This document shows, piece after piece, positions 321 to 9,517 of a DNA stretch of 13,437 nt (its first letter is position 1; each line of letters begins with the position of its first letter). Made by a program: the position numbers and the translations under genes. The stretch covers positions 1 to 13,437 of the forward strand of contig JBFMGU010000284.1 of NCBI GenBank assembly GCA_040752415.1, in the 5' to 3' direction. The notes below the pieces were generated by a model. The model was not told the DNA's origin. It ran no database searches and saw only the letters and a program-made list of their open reading frames with translations. The DNA comes from Myxococcota bacterium. Its GTDB lineage: Bacteria; Myxococcota; JACRCW01.

Positions 321-806
321 TCACCCCGCCATCACACCGGCATCCGGCACCGCCAAAGGAAGACACGCGCTGTCACGACACACGTGGTCGGTGGGACACT
401 GCGTGTCCGTGCTGCAACGCGCGTAGCAGGCGCCGTTGGCGCAGTGCTGGTCCGGTCCGCACTCCGCATCCGCCCGACACTCCCCACCCGACGTCACTGG
501 GGCCACCCCCGCCGGATCCGGGAATGATCCTTCCGTGCTCTCCGCCGGTGCGGCAACGCTCTCGCCCCCGGCGCTGCGCGCGCGCCCCGCGCACCGCCCA
601 TCCCTGCCGCAGCGCTCCCCGGAGCCACAATCTCCGTCGTGGACGCACTCCTGGTCCGCGTGCACGCACCAGCCGGAAGGCGTGCAGACGTCATCACCCG
701 CGCACTCGTCGCTGACGGTGCACGCTGCGCGTTCTGGCATTCCCAGCTCCAGCCGGCATCCGCCCACCGCCACCAGCGCACCCACGCACCACGTCGCCCA
801 GCGCAT
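321..806 (-). CDS. Cysteine-rich repeat lipoprotein (4 x C-x5-C-x5-C-x4/5-C; Dickkopf-N-like/myxobacterial disulfide repeats), 161 aa
   Basis: Start re-called at ATG 806 with GGAGG upstream (atGGAGGcgaggATG). N-terminus MRWATWCVGALVAVGG-C resembles a lipoprotein signal. Four regular Cys repeats follow. Confidence 0.8.
   Translation of the reverse strand: MRWATWCVGALVAVGGCRLELGMPERAACTVSDECAGDDVCTPSGWCVHADQECVHDGDCGSGERCGRDGRCAGRARSAGGESVAAPAESTEGSFPDPAGVAPVTSGGECRADAECGPDQHCANGACYARCSTDTQCPTDHVCRDSACLPLAVPDAGVMAG
363..722 (-). repeat. Four 18-19 aa Cys repeats in two pairs (666-722, 591-647; 426-479, 363-416) separated by an A/P/S/G-rich linker
   Basis: CTVSDECAGDDVCTPSGWC, CVHDGDCGSGERCGRDGRC, CRADAECGPDQHCANGAC, CSTDTQCPTDHVCRDSAC read directly from the translation. 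Confidence 0.9.
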
Positions 807-833
807 CCTCGCCTCCATCCATGCACACAGGTC

Positions 834-851
834 TTGCGCCTTCCGTGCCAG
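834..851 (-). promoter_or_regulatory. Putative sigma54 (RpoN) -24/-12 promoter for the Cys-rich lipoprotein
   Basis: Minus strand reads CTGGCACGGAAGGCGCAA: perfect TGGCACG -24 box, GG (849-848) and GC (837-836) exactly 10 nt apart. Predicted start ~824, just upstream of the RBS and ATG 806. The TT usually preceding GC is absent. Confidence 0.7.
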
Positions 852-855
852 CGCC

Positions 856-885
856 TTGACGCGCCGCCACGACGGCGTCCACGCT
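856..885 (+). promoter_or_regulatory. Possible sigma70-type promoter for the Omp85 operon
   Basis: TTGACG (856-861), 18-nt spacer, CACGCT (880-885), 15 nt upstream of ATG 901. The -10 match is weak. Confidence 0.3.
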
Positions 886-6998: not shown

Positions 6999-6999
6999 G

Positions 7000-8001
7000 T
7001 CACGGGACGAACATCTCCATCGTCGCCACCGCGCCAAAACCCTGCACCGTGGCCCCGCCGGGGACGTAGATGGCACTTCCCACCGCGGCCGCGCCCGTGC
7101 CGTGCCTCGGCGTGCGCATGACACGCAGGACGCGCCAGGAGTCGGTGGCGGGGTCGTAGGCCTCGGTGTCGTTGAAGATGCCCAGCGGGTCGGCGCTGTT
7201 CCCCTCGCCACCGAAGACGTAGATGACGCCGTCCAGCACCGCCGCGGCGGTTCCGGCTCGAGCGGTGGGGCCGGATGCGCGCTCACTCCACTGGCCCGTG
7301 CTCGTCGAGAAGGCGTCCACGCGCGCGGTCAACGGGCTGCGACCGCCCAGCGCATAGAACGTGTCACCCACCGCGCCACCGACGAGATGGTCGCGTGGCA
7401 CGGGCATGGGCGGCAGGATTTCCCAGGTGTTGGTGGCGGTATCGTAGCTGGAGAAGTCCGTCACCGAGCTGCCACGCAACCCACCCGCCACGTACACCTT
7501 GCTCCTGACGACCCCCACCGCCGACGAGCCTCGCTCCGTGCCCGCCGGCATGGGCGCGCGCGTGGTCCACATGTTGGCGGCGGGGTCGTATTCCAGCGTG
7601 ATTCCCGTGGCGCCAAAGTTCCCCCCGCCCAGGCACCCCACCACGTAGAGCCTTCCGTCGACGGCGGCGGCATTGCAGTGGTGCAGCGGCTCGGGAAGCG
7701 GGGCGATGGTGCGCCAGGTGTCGGTGGCGGGGTCGTAGGCTTCCACGTCCGCGACGACGGCATTGGCCTCATCAAAGCCGCCCACGACGTAGATCTCGCC
7801 CCCCAGCGCGGCCACCGCCGTTTCCTGGCGCGGGCCGTTGGCCATGTCCGCGCGCGGCACCCAACCGCCCTCATCACCCCCGGATGACGACGAGGATGAC
7901 GCCACGGCACCGCCGCTGGTGGAGCTGGAGGTGGTTGCGCTTCCGCCTCCGTCGGTGGTGCACGCTGCAAGGACCAGCACCGCGCAGATTCCCGCTCTCA
8001 T
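7000..8001 (-). CDS. Kelch-repeat (six-blade beta-propeller) lipoprotein, 333 aa
   Basis: Start re-called at ATG 8001 (GGAGG upstream). Lipobox VLAA-C, Ser/Thr/Gly linker, six Kelch units (IYVVGG, LYVVGC, VYVAGG, FYALGG, IYVFGG, IYVPGG) with YDP..xxW ends. Confidence 0.9.
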   Translation of the reverse strand: MRAGICAVLVLAACTTDGGGSATTSSSTSGGAVASSSSSSGGDEGGWVPRADMANGPRQETAVAALGGEIYVVGGFDEANAVVADVEAYDPATDTWRTIAPLPEPLHHCNAAAVDGRLYVVGCLGGGNFGATGITLEYDPAANMWTTRAPMPAGTERGSSAVGVVRSKVYVAGGLRGSSVTDFSSYDTATNTWEILPPMPVPRDHLVGGAVGDTFYALGGRSPLTARVDAFSTSTGQWSERASGPTARAGTAAAVLDGVIYVFGGEGNSADPLGIFNDTEAYDPATDSWRVLRVMRTPRHGTGAAAVGSAIYVPGGATVQGFGAVATMEMFVP

Positions 8002-8071
8002 GCCCAAGCCTCCCGAGTGACCACTGGCGTCGGGTTGACGGTGGGTCCATCCCGGCGCTTTCCTGCCGGCC

Positions 8072-9517
8072 ATGACCCTGGTCATCCCCCCTGAGCACAC
8101 CATCCTGGTGGTAGACGACGAACGCAATATCCGCAGGATGCTCCGTCTGGTGCTGGAGGGAGAAGGCTACCGCGTGATGGAGGCGGGGGATGCGGCGGAG
8201 ATGTTCGTCGAGGTCAAGAAGGGTCAGCCGGATCTCATCATCCTCGACGTGAAGCTTCCCGGCGAGGACGGGATCAGCGCCCTGGAACGCCTCAAGGCGG
8301 AGCGACCCGAGGCCAACGTCATCATGGTCAGCGGGCACGCCTCCATTGCCGACGCGGTGCGCGCCACCCGCCTGGGCGCCGTGGACTTCTTCGAGAAGCC
8401 GCTGGACCGCGAGCGCGTGCTGATCGCGGTGCGCAACGCGTTGATGCGCAAGGTCCTGGAGGAGCGCAACGAGGCGCTGGCGGGTCGCGCGTTTGCCGCC
8501 GGCAACGACGAGATGTTGGGCAACAGCACGGCCATGCGTGACCTCAAGGACGCCATTGCCAAGGTGGCTCCCACGCCGGGACGCGTGCTGATCACCGGGG
8601 AGAGCGGGACGGGCAAGGAGCTGGTGGCGCGCGCGATCCACGTCGCCAGCAAGCGGAGCAGGGGGCCGTTCGTGAAGGTGAACTGCGCGGCCATCCCGCA
8701 GACGCTGATTGAGAGCGAGCTGTTTGGTCACGAGCGCGGAGCGTTCAGTGGCGCGGAGAAGCGCAAGCGCGGTCTCTTCGAGCTGGCCGACGGCGGCACG
8801 CTCTTCCTCGACGAGGTGGGCGACATGCACGAGGGCGCCCAGGCCAAGGTGCTCCGCGTGCTGCAGACCGGCGACATGACCCGCGTGGGCGGAGAAAGCG
8901 CCATCACCGTCGACGTGCGCGTGATTGCCGCCACCAATCGCAACCTGGAGGAGGCCGTCCGCGCCCGGCAGTTCCGCGAAGATCTGTTCTTCCGTCTTGC
9001 CGTGGTGCCGCTGCACGTGGCGCCGCTGCGGGATCGTCGGGAGGACATTGCGCTGTTGGCGCGGGCGTTCATGGAGCGCTTCTGTCGGGACAACGGGCTG
9101 CCGCAGAAGGTCATCAGCGATGACGCGCTCCGCGCCATGACGACGTACAGCTGGCCCGGCAACGTGCGCGAGCTGCGCAATGTGTGTGAGCGGCTGGTGA
9201 TCCTGGCGGGCGACCCCATCCTGGTCTCCGACCTCCCACGCGAGATGGCGGAAGGCCGTGGTGCGCCGCTGGTCACGTCGGGAGCGCTGGGGGCCACGTC
9301 CTGGCCGCTGGCTTCCGCGGAGAGCCTCACGCTGCGCGAGTTCCGCGACGAGGCGGAGAAGTATCTTGTCGAGAAGCGCCTCAAGGAGTTTGACTGGAAC
9401 ATCACCAAGGCCGCGTCGGCGTTGGGCCTGGAGCGCACCAACCTGCACAAGAAGATCCGCCAGCTGGGACTCACGCGCCCCGGCGGTCTGCCCGCGCCCG
9501 CGGAAGAAGAGGCGTGA
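8072..9517 (+). CDS. Sigma54-dependent response regulator (REC-AAA+-Fis HTH), NtrC/NtrX family, 481 aa
   Basis: REC (ILVVDDE, LIILDVKLPG, FFEKP); Walker A GESGTGKE; ESELFGHERGAFSGA; Walker B LFLDEVG; RVIAATNR, FREDLFFRL, WPGNVREL; HTH NITKAASALGLERTNLHKKI. Confidence 0.95.
   Translation: MTLVIPPEHTILVVDDERNIRRMLRLVLEGEGYRVMEAGDAAEMFVEVKKGQPDLIILDVKLPGEDGISALERLKAERPEANVIMVSGHASIADAVRATRLGAVDFFEKPLDRERVLIAVRNALMRKVLEERNEALAGRAFAAGNDEMLGNSTAMRDLKDAIAKVAPTPGRVLITGESGTGKELVARAIHVASKRSRGPFVKVNCAAIPQTLIESELFGHERGAFSGAEKRKRGLFELADGGTLFLDEVGDMHEGAQAKVLRVLQTGDMTRVGGESAITVDVRVIAATNRNLEEAVRARQFREDLFFRLAVVPLHVAPLRDRREDIALLARAFMERFCRDNGLPQKVISDDALRAMTTYSWPGNVRELRNVCERLVILAGDPILVSDLPREMAEGRGAPLVTSGALGATSWPLASAESLTLREFRDEAEKYLVEKRLKEFDWNITKAASALGLERTNLHKKIRQLGLTRPGGLPAPAEEEA

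What the first reader, a model, noticed from the sequence alone, without database searches (positions are those of the whole stretch)
321..9517. Candidate trans-envelope signalling system: Omp85 + DUF4390-like + NtrY-like kinase + sigma54 activator, with an adjacent sigma54-driven lipoprotein target
Seen: the Omp85, DUF4390-like and kinase genes are chained by stop/start overlaps (TGATG 2401-2405, GTGA 3038-3041). They cover outer membrane, periplasm and inner membrane in order. A sigma54 activator follows on the same strand, and a -24/-12 promoter drives the divergent Cys-rich lipoprotein. Established: DUF4390 genes often precede ntrY-ntrX-like pairs, and Omp85 proteins normally insert or export proteins. 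Inference: this Omp85 may be a dedicated sensor or relay feeding a two-component system (analogous to Rcs or TonB-dependent surface signalling), or may export the lipoprotein the system induces. I know of no characterised system with this layout.
Basis: partly seen in the sequence, partly recalled or inferred. Interest (0 to 1): 0.8.

Follow-up and report, generated by a model that had tools for sequence, protein, structure and literature searches.

The report
Outer-membrane barrel linked to sensor kinase
A myxobacterial genome carries a tightly packed, widely conserved trio of genes (an outer-membrane barrel, a small periplasmic protein and a membrane sensor kinase) that probably passes envelope signals to a sigma-54 gene activator, an arrangement with no studied example.

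Summary
The gene chain is real, with corrections. The Omp85-like gene starts at 901, not 321 or 436. It has one POTRA domain. It overlaps a 212-aa secreted protein (2403-3041), which overlaps a two-pass HAMP histidine kinase (3038-4609).

The small protein is a divergent DUF4390 (PlrP-like) member: 13 of 20 relatives match that Pfam family, though the window's copy does not.

The trio is adjacent, with gaps of -4 to +13 nt, in 20 of 20 Myxococcota loci. It co-occurs perfectly in 41 genomes: 22 have all three, 19 have none. It recurs in 59 of 63 metagenome loci.

The sigma-54 activator (8072-9517) is the ancestral partner. It is adjacent to the kinase in 8 of 22 genomes. Here three unrelated inserted genes displace it by 3.5 kb.

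The Cys-rich lipoprotein and its -24/-12-like site are not conserved, and the site occurs at chance level.

Best reading: a PlrP/PlrS/PlrR-like three-component system with an added dedicated Omp85 that lacks BamA's lid-lock motifs. How the barrel takes part is inferred.

This scan noted the same kind of cassette four times before on other DNA. I found no paper describing it.

The parts
901..2403 (+). Omp85-family outer-membrane protein of 500 aa: signal peptide, acidic linker, one POTRA domain and a beta-barrel. It belongs to the 'BamA-like' type and lacks the lid-lock motifs.
   Evidence: Pfam Omp85 60.3 bits and POTRA 36.5 bits. The BamA equivalog TIGR03303 scores 108.9 bits against a cut-off of 297. 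The start was chosen by alignment with 19 orthologues. None of 20 family members has RG[FYW] or FxDxG at the positions where the genome's own BamA has VRGY and FLDAG.
2403..3041 (+). Secreted 212-aa DUF4390-like (PlrP-like) periplasmic protein; an alternative GTG start lies at 2400.
   Evidence: It overlaps the Omp85 stop. It has an N-terminal hydrophobic segment at residues 3-24. 13 of 20 orthologues hit PF14334, best E 1.5e-10. The AF2 model has pLDDT 83.8 and is a beta-sandwich with helices. The best VIA match is Z 7.5 to FnIII-type domains only.
3038..4609 (+). Sensor histidine kinase of 523 aa: TM1, a periplasmic domain of about 150 aa, TM2, HAMP, HisKA with H-box HEIKNP (H293), and HATPase_c. 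It has no PAS domain.
   Evidence: Pfam, hydropathy and the H-box. The sensor-domain model has pLDDT 87.6 with a helix-sheet-helix layout. It gives weak matches to PDC/Cache-type sensor domains, Z 6.5-7.1. The best NCBIfam hit is HK_LIC11548 at 192 bits, below its cut-off of 750.
8072..9517 (+). NtrC/NtrX-type response regulator (REC, sigma-54 AAA+, HTH_8) with GAFSGA in place of GAFTGA. It is the presumed cognate regulator.
   Evidence: Pfam. ntrC TIGR01818 scores 458.7 bits and NtrX NF051870 442.6 bits, both below their cut-offs. It is 77% identical to the regulator that directly follows the kinase in the nearest relative, and it is that protein's best hit in this genome (793 bits against 423 for the next).
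4593..8001 (.). Three inserted genes, not part of the system: L-piperidine-6-carboxylate dehydrogenase 4593-6110 (-), Ser-rich lipoprotein 6153-6998 (+) and Kelch-repeat lipoprotein 7000-8001 (-).
   Evidence: NF050084 scores 755.3 bits, above its cut-off of 730. None of the three was found in any of 20 relatives' loci, and kinase and regulator are adjacent in the three other genomes of the class.
321..806 (-). Cys-rich lipoprotein of 161 aa with 18 Cys. It is lineage-specific and not part of the conserved system.
   Evidence: Lipobox LVAVGGC, DUF7107 at 33.1 bits and the Cys count. It is absent from all 20 relatives' loci, and only three hits of 22-24 bits occur elsewhere in its own genome.
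835..850 (-). -24/-12-like site TGGCACGGAAGGCGCA upstream of the Cys-rich lipoprotein gene.
   Evidence: It is the only match to the loose pattern in the window, but 0.49 are expected by chance. Genome-wide there are 81 matches against 176 for the reversed control. The -12 half keeps only GC.

Best explanation
The window holds a conserved envelope-spanning sensory module. Its parts are a dedicated Omp85-family barrel with one POTRA domain (outer membrane), a DUF4390/PlrP-like secreted protein (periplasm) and a bifunctional HAMP histidine kinase with a PDC-like periplasmic sensor domain (inner membrane). All three are translated from one overlapping operon and signal to an NtrC/NtrX-type sigma-54 activator.

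Shown: the three genes are an evolutionary unit, and the activator is their usual partner, though it is often unlinked.

Inferred by analogy with Bordetella PlrP-PlrS: the small protein binds the kinase's periplasmic domain and sets its kinase/phosphatase balance.

Inferred, untested: the Omp85 POTRA domain or barrel holds, sequesters or releases the small protein according to the state of the outer membrane. Envelope status would then reach the kinase through the amount of free DUF4390 protein.

In this genome three unrelated genes have been inserted between kinase and activator, and a Cys-rich lipoprotein gene has been inserted upstream of Omp85. Neither insertion belongs to the system.
For: Overlapping stops and starts are present in the window. 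Gaps are -4 to +13 nt (Omp85 to small protein) and -4 to +6 nt (small protein to kinase) in 20 of 20 loci across the phylum.

Co-occurrence in 41 genomes is perfect. The same 22 genomes carry the small protein, an Omp85 orthologue at 350 bits or more and exactly one copy of the kinase sensor domain. The other 19 carry none of the three; their best Omp85-profile hit is at most 142.5 bits, on BamA-sized ORFs. Within one genus, 3 genomes have all three and 1 (97% complete) has none.

In metagenomes, Omp85 is directly upstream in 59 of 63 loci and the kinase downstream in 62 of 62.

Phylum-wide, 77 of 301 genomes (39 of 126 genera) have the small protein, each as a single copy.

DUF4390 membership holds by transitivity: 13 of 20 orthologues hit the family, and metagenome member L062 scores 39.3 bits against a cut-off of 27, with Omp85+POTRA upstream.

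PlrP is described as a DUF4390 periplasmic third component that restrains PlrS phosphatase through its PDC domain. plrP and plrS overlap by 4 bp, and PlrS has the HEIKN motif (PMC13001219). The window's kinase has HEIKNP.

The regulator is adjacent to the kinase in 8 of 22 genomes and 1.6-3.5 kb away in 3. A regulator scoring 452 bits or more is present in 22 of 22 trio-positive genomes and 1 of 19 trio-negative genomes.

The barrel differs from the genome's own BamA: VRGY and FLDAG are absent at the aligned positions in all 20 family members. POTRA is the barrel protein's most conserved part, with mean top-residue frequency 0.61 against 0.50 for the barrel.
Against: There is no direct evidence of any protein-protein contact.

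No fused forms were seen among the best 150 of 1428 family representatives, which are 144-289 aa long.

Four of 63 metagenome loci lack Omp85 upstream. L100 has a Ser/Thr kinase there and L110 has PhoB/PhoR; L074 and L085 have only about 800 nt of flank. So the small protein and kinase can stand without an adjacent barrel.

The regulator is unlinked in 11 of 22 genomes. No EBP lies within 5 kb downstream in 32 of 37 metagenome loci. One trio-negative genome keeps a regulator of orthologue-level score.

The window's own small protein does not reach Pfam DUF4390. The kinase has no PAS domain, unlike PlrS/NtrY. The sensor-domain fold matches are only middling, at Z 7.1 or less. Related genomes are not independent samples.
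Confidence: 0.55

Rival explanations
1. Secretion-coupled signalling. The Omp85 is a dedicated translocase or assembly factor for the DUF4390 protein, in the manner of a two-partner system. It moves the protein into or across the outer membrane, and the kinase reads how much remains in the periplasm.
For: Omp85 proteins insert or translocate proteins (PMC4104836 and PMC11358297, passages read). Barrel and 'passenger' genes are adjacent in operon order, barrel first. The small protein has a signal peptide, a Ser-rich disordered stretch (pLDDT below 50 at residues 184-193) and then a C-terminal strand.
Against: The Pfam scan listed no TpsB-type domains for the barrel (only PF01103 and PF07244). 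The small protein has no TPS domain and is a compact beta-sandwich. The superfamily's lid-lock motifs, which the cited Leptospira paper shows in its BamA and noNterm paralogues, are missing here. That argues against a canonical insertase or translocase cycle.
Confidence: 0.2
2. Co-regulation only. The barrel is simply an output gene (an extra BamA-like assembly factor) carried in the same autoregulated operon as a PlrP/PlrS-like sensor pair. It has no part in sensing.
For: Heinz and Lithgow suggest that 'BamA-like' proteins with 1-3 POTRA domains, always present beside BamA, are assembly factors (PMC4104836). This genome has a separate 835-aa BamA. Proteobacterial PlrP-PlrS works without any Omp85; the words Omp85, BamA and 'outer membrane' occur 0 times in PMC13001219.
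Against: A mere output gene would not be expected to show co-occurrence of 22 with both and 19 with neither alongside the sensor pair, nor translational coupling upstream of it in 20 of 20 loci. No conserved sigma-54 site precedes the operon: 1 weak site in 19 relatives. The barrel's loss of the lid-lock motifs does not fit a plain spare BamA.
Confidence: 0.15
3. The divergent Cys-rich lipoprotein is the sigma-54-driven target of the system and perhaps the barrel's export substrate.
For: A TGGCACG-N4-GCGCA site lies at 835-850(-). It is placed so that a transcript would start about 18 nt before ATG 806 and include a GGAGG. The product is a lipoprotein with 18 Cys.
Against: The gene is in none of 20 relatives' loci. 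It has no paralogue in its own genome. It sits where the nearest relative has a 9-nt gap between the TPR gene and Omp85. The loose site occurs 81 times in the genome against 176 for the control, and 78 of 200 shuffles of the window give at least one.
Confidence: 0.07

Closest known systems
PlrP-PlrS-PlrR of Bordetella (NtrYX-family two-component system with a DUF4390 periplasmic third component; Wolber et al. 2026, PMC13001219)
   Same: A secreted DUF4390-family protein is encoded immediately 5' of the kinase with a 4-nt overlap. The kinase has a periplasmic sensor domain, HAMP and the HEIKN H-box. The regulator is of the REC-AAA+-HTH type.
   Different: There is no rsmB upstream and no PAS domain in the kinase. 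The small protein is too divergent for Pfam in this copy. The regulator is often unlinked. Above all, a dedicated Omp85 gene is translationally coupled upstream; the paper's text mentions nothing like it.
'BamA-like' Omp85 subfamily (Heinz and Lithgow 2014, PMC4104836)
   Same: It has a barrel plus 1-3 POTRA domains and is present in addition to a true BamA.
   Different: The passages read make no link to signalling genes. This family lacks the L6 RG(F/Y/W) and FxDxG lid-lock motifs at the aligned positions.
RcsF / BamA-OMP / IgaA / Rcs phosphorelay of enterobacteria (recalled, not read here)
   Same: It is the same idea: an outer-membrane barrel and a small envelope protein report outer-membrane state to an inner-membrane signalling protein.
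   Different: The proteins are unrelated. RcsF is a lipoprotein, the genes are scattered, and no dedicated Omp85 paralogue is involved. This is a functional analogy only.
NtrZ-NtrY-NtrX of Caulobacter and DbfQ-DbfRS of Vibrio cholerae (small periplasmic modulators of kinases; NtrZ as cited in PMC13001219, DbfQ from the abstract listed)
   Same: A small periplasmic protein tunes the kinase, reportedly by limiting phosphatase activity in the case of NtrZ.
   Different: The proteins are not DUF4390 and have no outer-membrane partner.
TonB-dependent surface signalling (FecA-FecR-FecI; recalled)
   Same: An outer-membrane barrel starts a trans-envelope signal to a transcription factor.
   Different: It uses a TonB-dependent 22-strand transducer, an anti-sigma factor and an ECF sigma factor, not Omp85, DUF4390 and a histidine kinase.

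Membership tests
PlrPSR / NtrYX-with-DUF4390 system | A secreted DUF4390 (PF14334) protein is encoded directly 5' of the kinase | tested here: met
   The position and 4-nt overlap are met. 13 of 20 orthologues hit PF14334 and L062 scores above the cut-off. The window's own copy gives no hit, so membership is by transitivity.
PlrPSR / NtrYX-with-DUF4390 system | The kinase has a periplasmic PDC domain | tested here: inconclusive
   The model has a helix-sheet-helix layout. Foldseek gives nothing at E<=1e-3. VIA gives Z 6.5-7.1 to kinase, CusS and LapD periplasmic sensor domains, tied with unrelated helical hits.
PlrPSR / NtrYX-with-DUF4390 system | The cytoplasmic order is HAMP-PAS-HisKA-HATPase | tested here: not met
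   HAMP is at 218-268 and HisKA at 286-351. No PAS hit was found, and only 17 residues lie between them.
PlrPSR / NtrYX-with-DUF4390 system | The H-box is HEIKN (a bifunctional kinase/phosphatase) | tested here: met
   HEIKNP lies at 293-298. It is invariant in 20 of 20 orthologues.
PlrPSR / NtrYX-with-DUF4390 system | An NtrX-type regulator (REC-AAA+-HTH) partners the kinase | tested here: inconclusive
   The architecture is met. The NtrX equivalog scores 442.6 bits against a cut-off of 600, and ntrC 458.7 against 558.6. Pairing is inferred from adjacency in 8 of 22 genomes.
BamA (outer membrane protein assembly factor) | Five POTRA domains and a score above the equivalog cut-off | tested here: not met
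   There is one POTRA domain. TIGR03303 scores 108.9 bits against 297.15, and NF008287 39.4 against 1181.
Omp85 superfamily | The Omp85 barrel domain (PF01103) with POTRA (PF07244) | tested here: met
   The scores are 60.3 bits (cut-off 24) and 36.5 bits (cut-off 21.3).
Omp85 superfamily | Lid-lock motifs: RG(F/Y/W) on loop 6 and FxDxG on strand 13 (as described in PMC11358297) | tested here: not met
   The genome's own BamA has VRGY and FLDAG. None of 20 family members has either at the aligned positions. This rests on a MAFFT alignment of divergent barrels; no structure was predicted.
'BamA-like' subfamily (Heinz and Lithgow) | 1-3 POTRA domains, distinct from BamA and present beside a BamA | tested here: met
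   There is one POTRA domain. A separate 835-aa BamA lies on contig C400.
Two-partner secretion (TpsB/TpsA) | A TpsB-type barrel and POTRA_2, with a TpsA passenger carrying a TPS domain | tested here: not met
   The Pfam scans listed no such families for the barrel or the small protein.
Sigma-54 promoter | GG and GC 10 nt apart within TGGCACG-N4-TTGCW, and more frequent than chance | tested here: inconclusive
   The -24 half is perfect, and the -12 half keeps only GC. There is no enrichment: 81 matches against 176 for the control. The exact consensus occurs once in the genome against 2 for the control.

The most novel reading that the evidence does not exclude
An Omp85-family barrel has been recruited from protein insertion to signal transduction. 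Having lost the lid-lock that defines working insertases and translocases, it forms a standing trans-envelope complex. In that complex the POTRA domain holds the DUF4390 beta-sandwich, which in turn docks on the kinase's sensor domain. The mechanical or compositional state of the outer membrane is thus read directly by a two-component system. This would be a widespread sensing route parallel to Rcs, present in Myxococcota and, according to earlier unchecked notes of this scan, in Acidobacteriota and Gemmatimonadota.
Probability: 0.3. Interest if true: 0.85.

Novelty: new variant of a known kind. Interest (0 to 1): 0.62.

Why it matters
How bacteria outside the enterobacteria sense the state of their outer membrane is largely unknown. 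DUF4390 received its first functional assignment only in 2026, and only in proteobacteria. This cassette ties that protein and its kinase to a dedicated Omp85 paralogue. The link holds by gene order, by translational coupling and by joint presence or absence across a quarter of sampled Myxococcota and many soil and peat metagenome contigs.

If the barrel takes part in signalling, it would extend the known roles of the Omp85 superfamily beyond insertion and translocation. It would also give DUF4390 proteins a second partner. Carriers in the family I take to be Anaeromyxobacteraceae include genomes assembled as a single contig. That family assignment is an inference from contig lengths and record titles. 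If cultured strains are among them, the idea can be tested at the bench.

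Tried and rejected
- Complex prediction (Omp85 residues 70-500 with the small protein residues 20-212) was answered 'not available now', and nothing was folded.
- No public sequencing run was listed for window 700-4700, and no RNA holder was listed. 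I therefore made no expression or 5'-end check.
- Foldseek against the PDB gave nothing at E<=1e-3 for either model. VIA-wide gave only middling Z values: 7.5 for the small protein (FnIII/Ig-like) and 7.7 for the sensor domain, mostly helical hairpins.
- Pfam DUF4390 searched directly in the four genomes of the class matched none over the cut-off and 1 of 4 at E<=0.01; the window's own genome gave no match at all. It also rang in 0 of 14 control genomes.
- The full 20-sequence alignment A1 was too diverse for a collection scan. A 10-sequence subset (A2) was used instead.
- Fused forms were looked for. The best 150 of 1428 representatives are 144-289 aa long. Lower-ranked hits were not seen.
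- A conserved sigma-54 site upstream of the operon was looked for, allowing up to 2 mismatches. Only L030 of 19 relatives has one, and it is weak.
- Conserved neighbours beyond the trio and the regulator were looked for. None is shared by more than 5 of 21 genome loci. In one metagenome class, transglutaminase-like and methyltransferase genes recur upstream, but the downstream genes vary.
- Look-ups of earlier findings by sequence and by place returned nothing.
- Literature searches found no paper describing the cassette: DUF4390; Omp85+NtrY; LIC11548; Omp85/POTRA/histidine kinase/operon/periplasmic/sigma-54; NtrYX+BamA; Omp85/sensor kinase/gene neighborhood/periplasmic. Subscription journals are not covered. 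I did not open the supplementary tables of PMC4104836 or PMC13001219, and they may list these proteins.

Full report
**What is in the window**

The window has about 68% G+C. It is contig C206 of an 11-Mb, 520-contig genome. Titles of related public contigs read Anaeromyxobacteraceae, Haliangiales and 'Deltaproteobacteria bacterium' MAGs, which places it in Myxococcota. Only four genomes of its class are held.

The real genes, from Pfam, NCBIfam and translation, are:
- the C-terminus of a TPR protein, 2-310 (+);
- a Cys-rich lipoprotein, 321-806 (-), with 18 Cys in 161 aa and a weak DUF7107 match;
- an Omp85 protein, 901-2403 (+);
- a 212-aa secreted protein, 2403-3041 (+);
- a histidine kinase, 3038-4609 (+);
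- L-piperidine-6-carboxylate dehydrogenase, 4593-6110 (-), above its NCBIfam cut-off;
- a Ser-rich lipoprotein, 6153-6998 (+);
- a Kelch lipoprotein, 7000-8001 (-);
- a REC / sigma-54-AAA+ / HTH_8 regulator, 8072-9517 (+);
- a PMT_2-type glycosyltransferase, 9518-11164 (-).

**Checking the observation**

Both overlaps are exactly as described. The localisation order is plausible. The Omp85 has a signal peptide, an acidic linker, one POTRA domain and a barrel. The small protein has one N-terminal hydrophobic segment. The kinase has two hydrophobic segments around roughly 150 residues.

Three points need correction:
- The Omp85 gene starts at 901. The 655-aa ORF from 436 is a GC-rich artefact that runs antisense through the lipoprotein gene.
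- The activator is 3.46 kb from the kinase, with three unrelated genes in between, two of them on the other strand.
- The window's own small protein gives no DUF4390 hit.

The small protein has one homologue in 22 of 41 genomes sampled across the phylum. I fetched up to 16 kb around 20 of them.

tblastn and all-against-all clustering show Omp85, the small protein and the kinase side by side on one strand in every locus with enough flank. L041 is a 4.4-kb contig and lacks the Omp85 end. In the window plus 19 loci, the Omp85-to-small-protein gap is -4 to +13 nt and the small-protein-to-kinase gap is -4 to +6 nt.

Profiles of the Omp85 (A3) and of the kinase's periplasmic domain alone (A5) find orthologues in exactly the same 22 genomes:
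- Omp85 scores at least 510 bits in 21 genomes, and 350 bits at a contig end in G040.
- The sensor domain occurs as exactly one copy in each.
- The other 19 genomes have only BamA-sized relatives, at most 142.5 bits, and no sensor-domain match.

Within genus g10, three genomes have all three genes and one (97% complete) has none. Related genomes are not independent samples, so I give these as counts, not as a test.

Across 301 genomes of the phylum, 77 (39 of 126 genera) carry the small protein, each as a single copy. Family f11 has none in 141 genomes, f15 has 33 in 45, f4 17 in 17 and f6 16 in 17.

A metagenome scan gave 123 relatives, of which the best 80 were kept; they hold 74 distinct small-protein DNA sequences. 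My script counted an Omp85-profile ORF directly upstream in 55 of 63 loci with at least 400 nt of upstream flank. Four of its eight misses (L077, L080, L087, L092) were artefacts of over-long reading frames. In the table their Omp85 ORFs end next to the small-protein start. The count is therefore 59 of 63.

The true exceptions are four loci. L100 has a Ser/Thr kinase upstream and L110 has PhoB/PhoR. L074 and L085 have only about 800 nt of flank. The kinase follows in 62 of 62 loci with at least 900 nt of downstream flank.

**What the small protein is**

Thirteen of 20 orthologues match Pfam DUF4390, best E 1.5e-10. Metagenome member L062 exceeds the cut-off, at 39.3 bits against 27, and has Omp85+POTRA upstream.

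A profile of the family finds 1428 cluster representatives at E<=1e-3. The best 150 are all stand-alone proteins of 144-289 aa.

The AF2 model has pLDDT 83.8. It is a beta-sandwich with inserted helices, a disordered Ser-rich stretch and a final strand. Only generic FnIII/Ig-like matches appear, at Z 7.5 or less.

The only functional study found is Wolber et al. 2026. I read its abstract and passages. It reports that:
- PlrP, a DUF4390 periplasmic protein, acts as a third component of the Bordetella PlrSR (NtrYX-family) system;
- PlrP probably restrains PlrS phosphatase through its PDC domain;
- plrP and plrS overlap by 4 bp;

Its survey covered proteobacteria. Its text contains no mention of Omp85, BamA or the outer membrane.

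**The kinase and the regulator**

The kinase has HAMP, HisKA with HEIKNP at H293, and HATPase_c, but no PAS domain. The H-box region is invariant in 20 of 20 orthologues. The best NCBIfam hit is the Leptospira LIC_11548 family, far below its cut-off.

The sensor-domain model has pLDDT 87.6, with a long helix, a four-to-five-strand sheet and a helix. It resembles PDC/Cache-type sensors only weakly.

The regulator carries GAFSGA rather than GAFTGA. It is 77% identical to the regulator that directly follows the kinase in the nearest relative. It is also that protein's best hit among 41 EBP-like genes of this genome, at 793 bits against 423 for the next.

Among the 22 trio-positive genomes:
- kinase and regulator are adjacent in 8 (G001, G002, G003, G005, G015, G024, G031, G038);
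- they are 1.6-3.5 kb apart in 3 (G000, G021, G028);
- the regulator is on another contig, or 0.9 Mb away, in 11.

A regulator scoring at least 452 bits is present in 22 of 22 trio-positive genomes. Among the 19 trio-negative genomes, only G018 has one.

In metagenome loci an EBP lies downstream within the flank in only 5 of 37. The invariant core is therefore the trio, and the regulator is a frequent but loosely linked partner.

In this window, the three genes between kinase and regulator occur in no relative's locus. Adjacency in all three other genomes of the class makes the insertion the derived state.

**The barrel**

It fits the 'BamA-like' description of Heinz and Lithgow: 1-3 POTRA domains, always present beside BamA, and proposed as assembly factors (PMC4104836, passages). 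The genome has a separate 835-aa BamA on C400.

I aligned the family to that BamA. BamA shows VRGY and FLDAG. These are the loop-6 and strand-13 lid-lock motifs that PMC11358297 (passages) describes as conserved across Omp85 proteins. None of the 20 family members has either motif at the aligned positions. They carry PFFxxFxxGDxxYFxxxxxSLPR instead.

POTRA is the most conserved segment of the protein, at 0.61 against 0.50 for the barrel.

**The lipoprotein and the promoter**

The site at 835-850 (-) has a perfect -24 half and correct GG-GC spacing. It is placed about 18 nt before ATG 806, ahead of a GGAGG.

Against this:
- its -12 half keeps only GC;
- the loose pattern is expected 0.49 times per window, and 78 of 200 shuffles give at least one match;
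- the loose pattern occurs 81 times in the genome against 176 for the reversed control;
- the exact consensus occurs once in 11 Mb against 2 for the control.

The lipoprotein gene is absent from all 20 relatives' loci and has no paralogue in its own genome. In the nearest relative an 827-aa TPR protein ends 9 nt before Omp85. The lipoprotein gene is therefore an insertion between the TPR gene and Omp85. I see no reason to count it as part of the system.

**Mechanism**

Shown: a three-gene unit spanning the envelope, co-inherited and translationally coupled, with an NtrC/NtrX-type partner.

Inferred from PlrP-PlrS: the DUF4390 protein binds the sensor domain and sets the kinase/phosphatase balance of a HEIKN-type bifunctional kinase.

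Inferred without a test: the barrel, through POTRA, tethers or releases the DUF4390 protein according to outer-membrane state.

The rivals are export of the small protein by the barrel, and mere co-regulation of a spare assembly factor. Complex prediction, which would have borne on this, was not available.

**Novelty**

Six literature searches found no description of an Omp85-DUF4390-kinase cassette.

This scan's own earlier notes record the same kind of cassette in an Acidobacteriota genome, in two Gemmatimonadota genomes (with a bactofilin-like barrel) and in another myxobacterium. I did not test the claims for other phyla. My Myxococcota and metagenome counts agree with the note that the regulator is often missing from the locus.

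I class this as a new variant of a known kind: a PlrP/PlrS/PlrR-like system with an added dedicated outer-membrane barrel.

Noticed in passing
window 4593-4609: The aldehyde dehydrogenase gene (minus strand; L-piperidine-6-carboxylate dehydrogenase, 755 bits against a cut-off of 730) and the kinase gene converge, and their 3' ends overlap by 17 nt. This is a sign of a tight, probably recent, junction.
   Followed up: partly
window 6153-6998 (+) and 7000-8001 (-): Two convergent lipoprotein genes lie here, one with a weak transthyretin-like match and one Kelch-repeat. Each has a lipobox followed by a long Ser/Gly-rich linker. Neither occurs in any relative's locus. Their function is unknown.
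   Followed up: partly
window 8072-9517, residues about 222-227: The sigma-54 activator has GAFSGA instead of the usual GAFTGA loop. I did not check whether this is shared by its orthologues.
   Followed up: no
window 9518-12144 (-): A PMT_2/ArnT-like membrane glycosyltransferase (548 aa, about 9 hydrophobic segments) abuts the activator's stop. Its start overlaps by 4 nt the end of a 327-aa protein that has no family match.
   Followed up: no
window 3038-4609: The kinase's best NCBIfam match is the Leptospira LIC_11548 family (192 bits, E 1.9e-56, far below its cut-off of 750). This is a lead that spirochaetes hold a related kinase. No paper mentions LIC11548.
   Followed up: partly
L062, L066, L071, L076 and others (metagenome loci): A second class of 31 metagenome loci has a more divergent Omp85 (about 310-330 bits) and a sensor domain that the A5 profile barely or never detects. 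It often has transglutaminase-like and methyltransferase genes upstream and no EBP within 5 kb. Its taxon is unknown.
   Followed up: partly
G018 (genus g10), C107:10709-12034: This genome lacks Omp85, the small protein and the sensor domain. It nevertheless keeps a regulator that scores as high (452 bits) as the orthologue in its trio-bearing congeners.
   Followed up: no
G000 genome-wide: At least 41 sigma-54 activator-like genes match at E<=1e-40, yet the exact TGGCACG-N4-TTGCW consensus occurs only once in 11 Mb. This organism's sigma-54 promoters probably deviate from the textbook consensus.
   Followed up: partly
L029 10329-11750 and L032 10039-11390: In two loci that I take to be Anaeromyxobacteraceae, a small membrane protein and a short-chain dehydrogenase sit between kinase and regulator. 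This is a second, independent insertion at the same junction.
   Followed up: no
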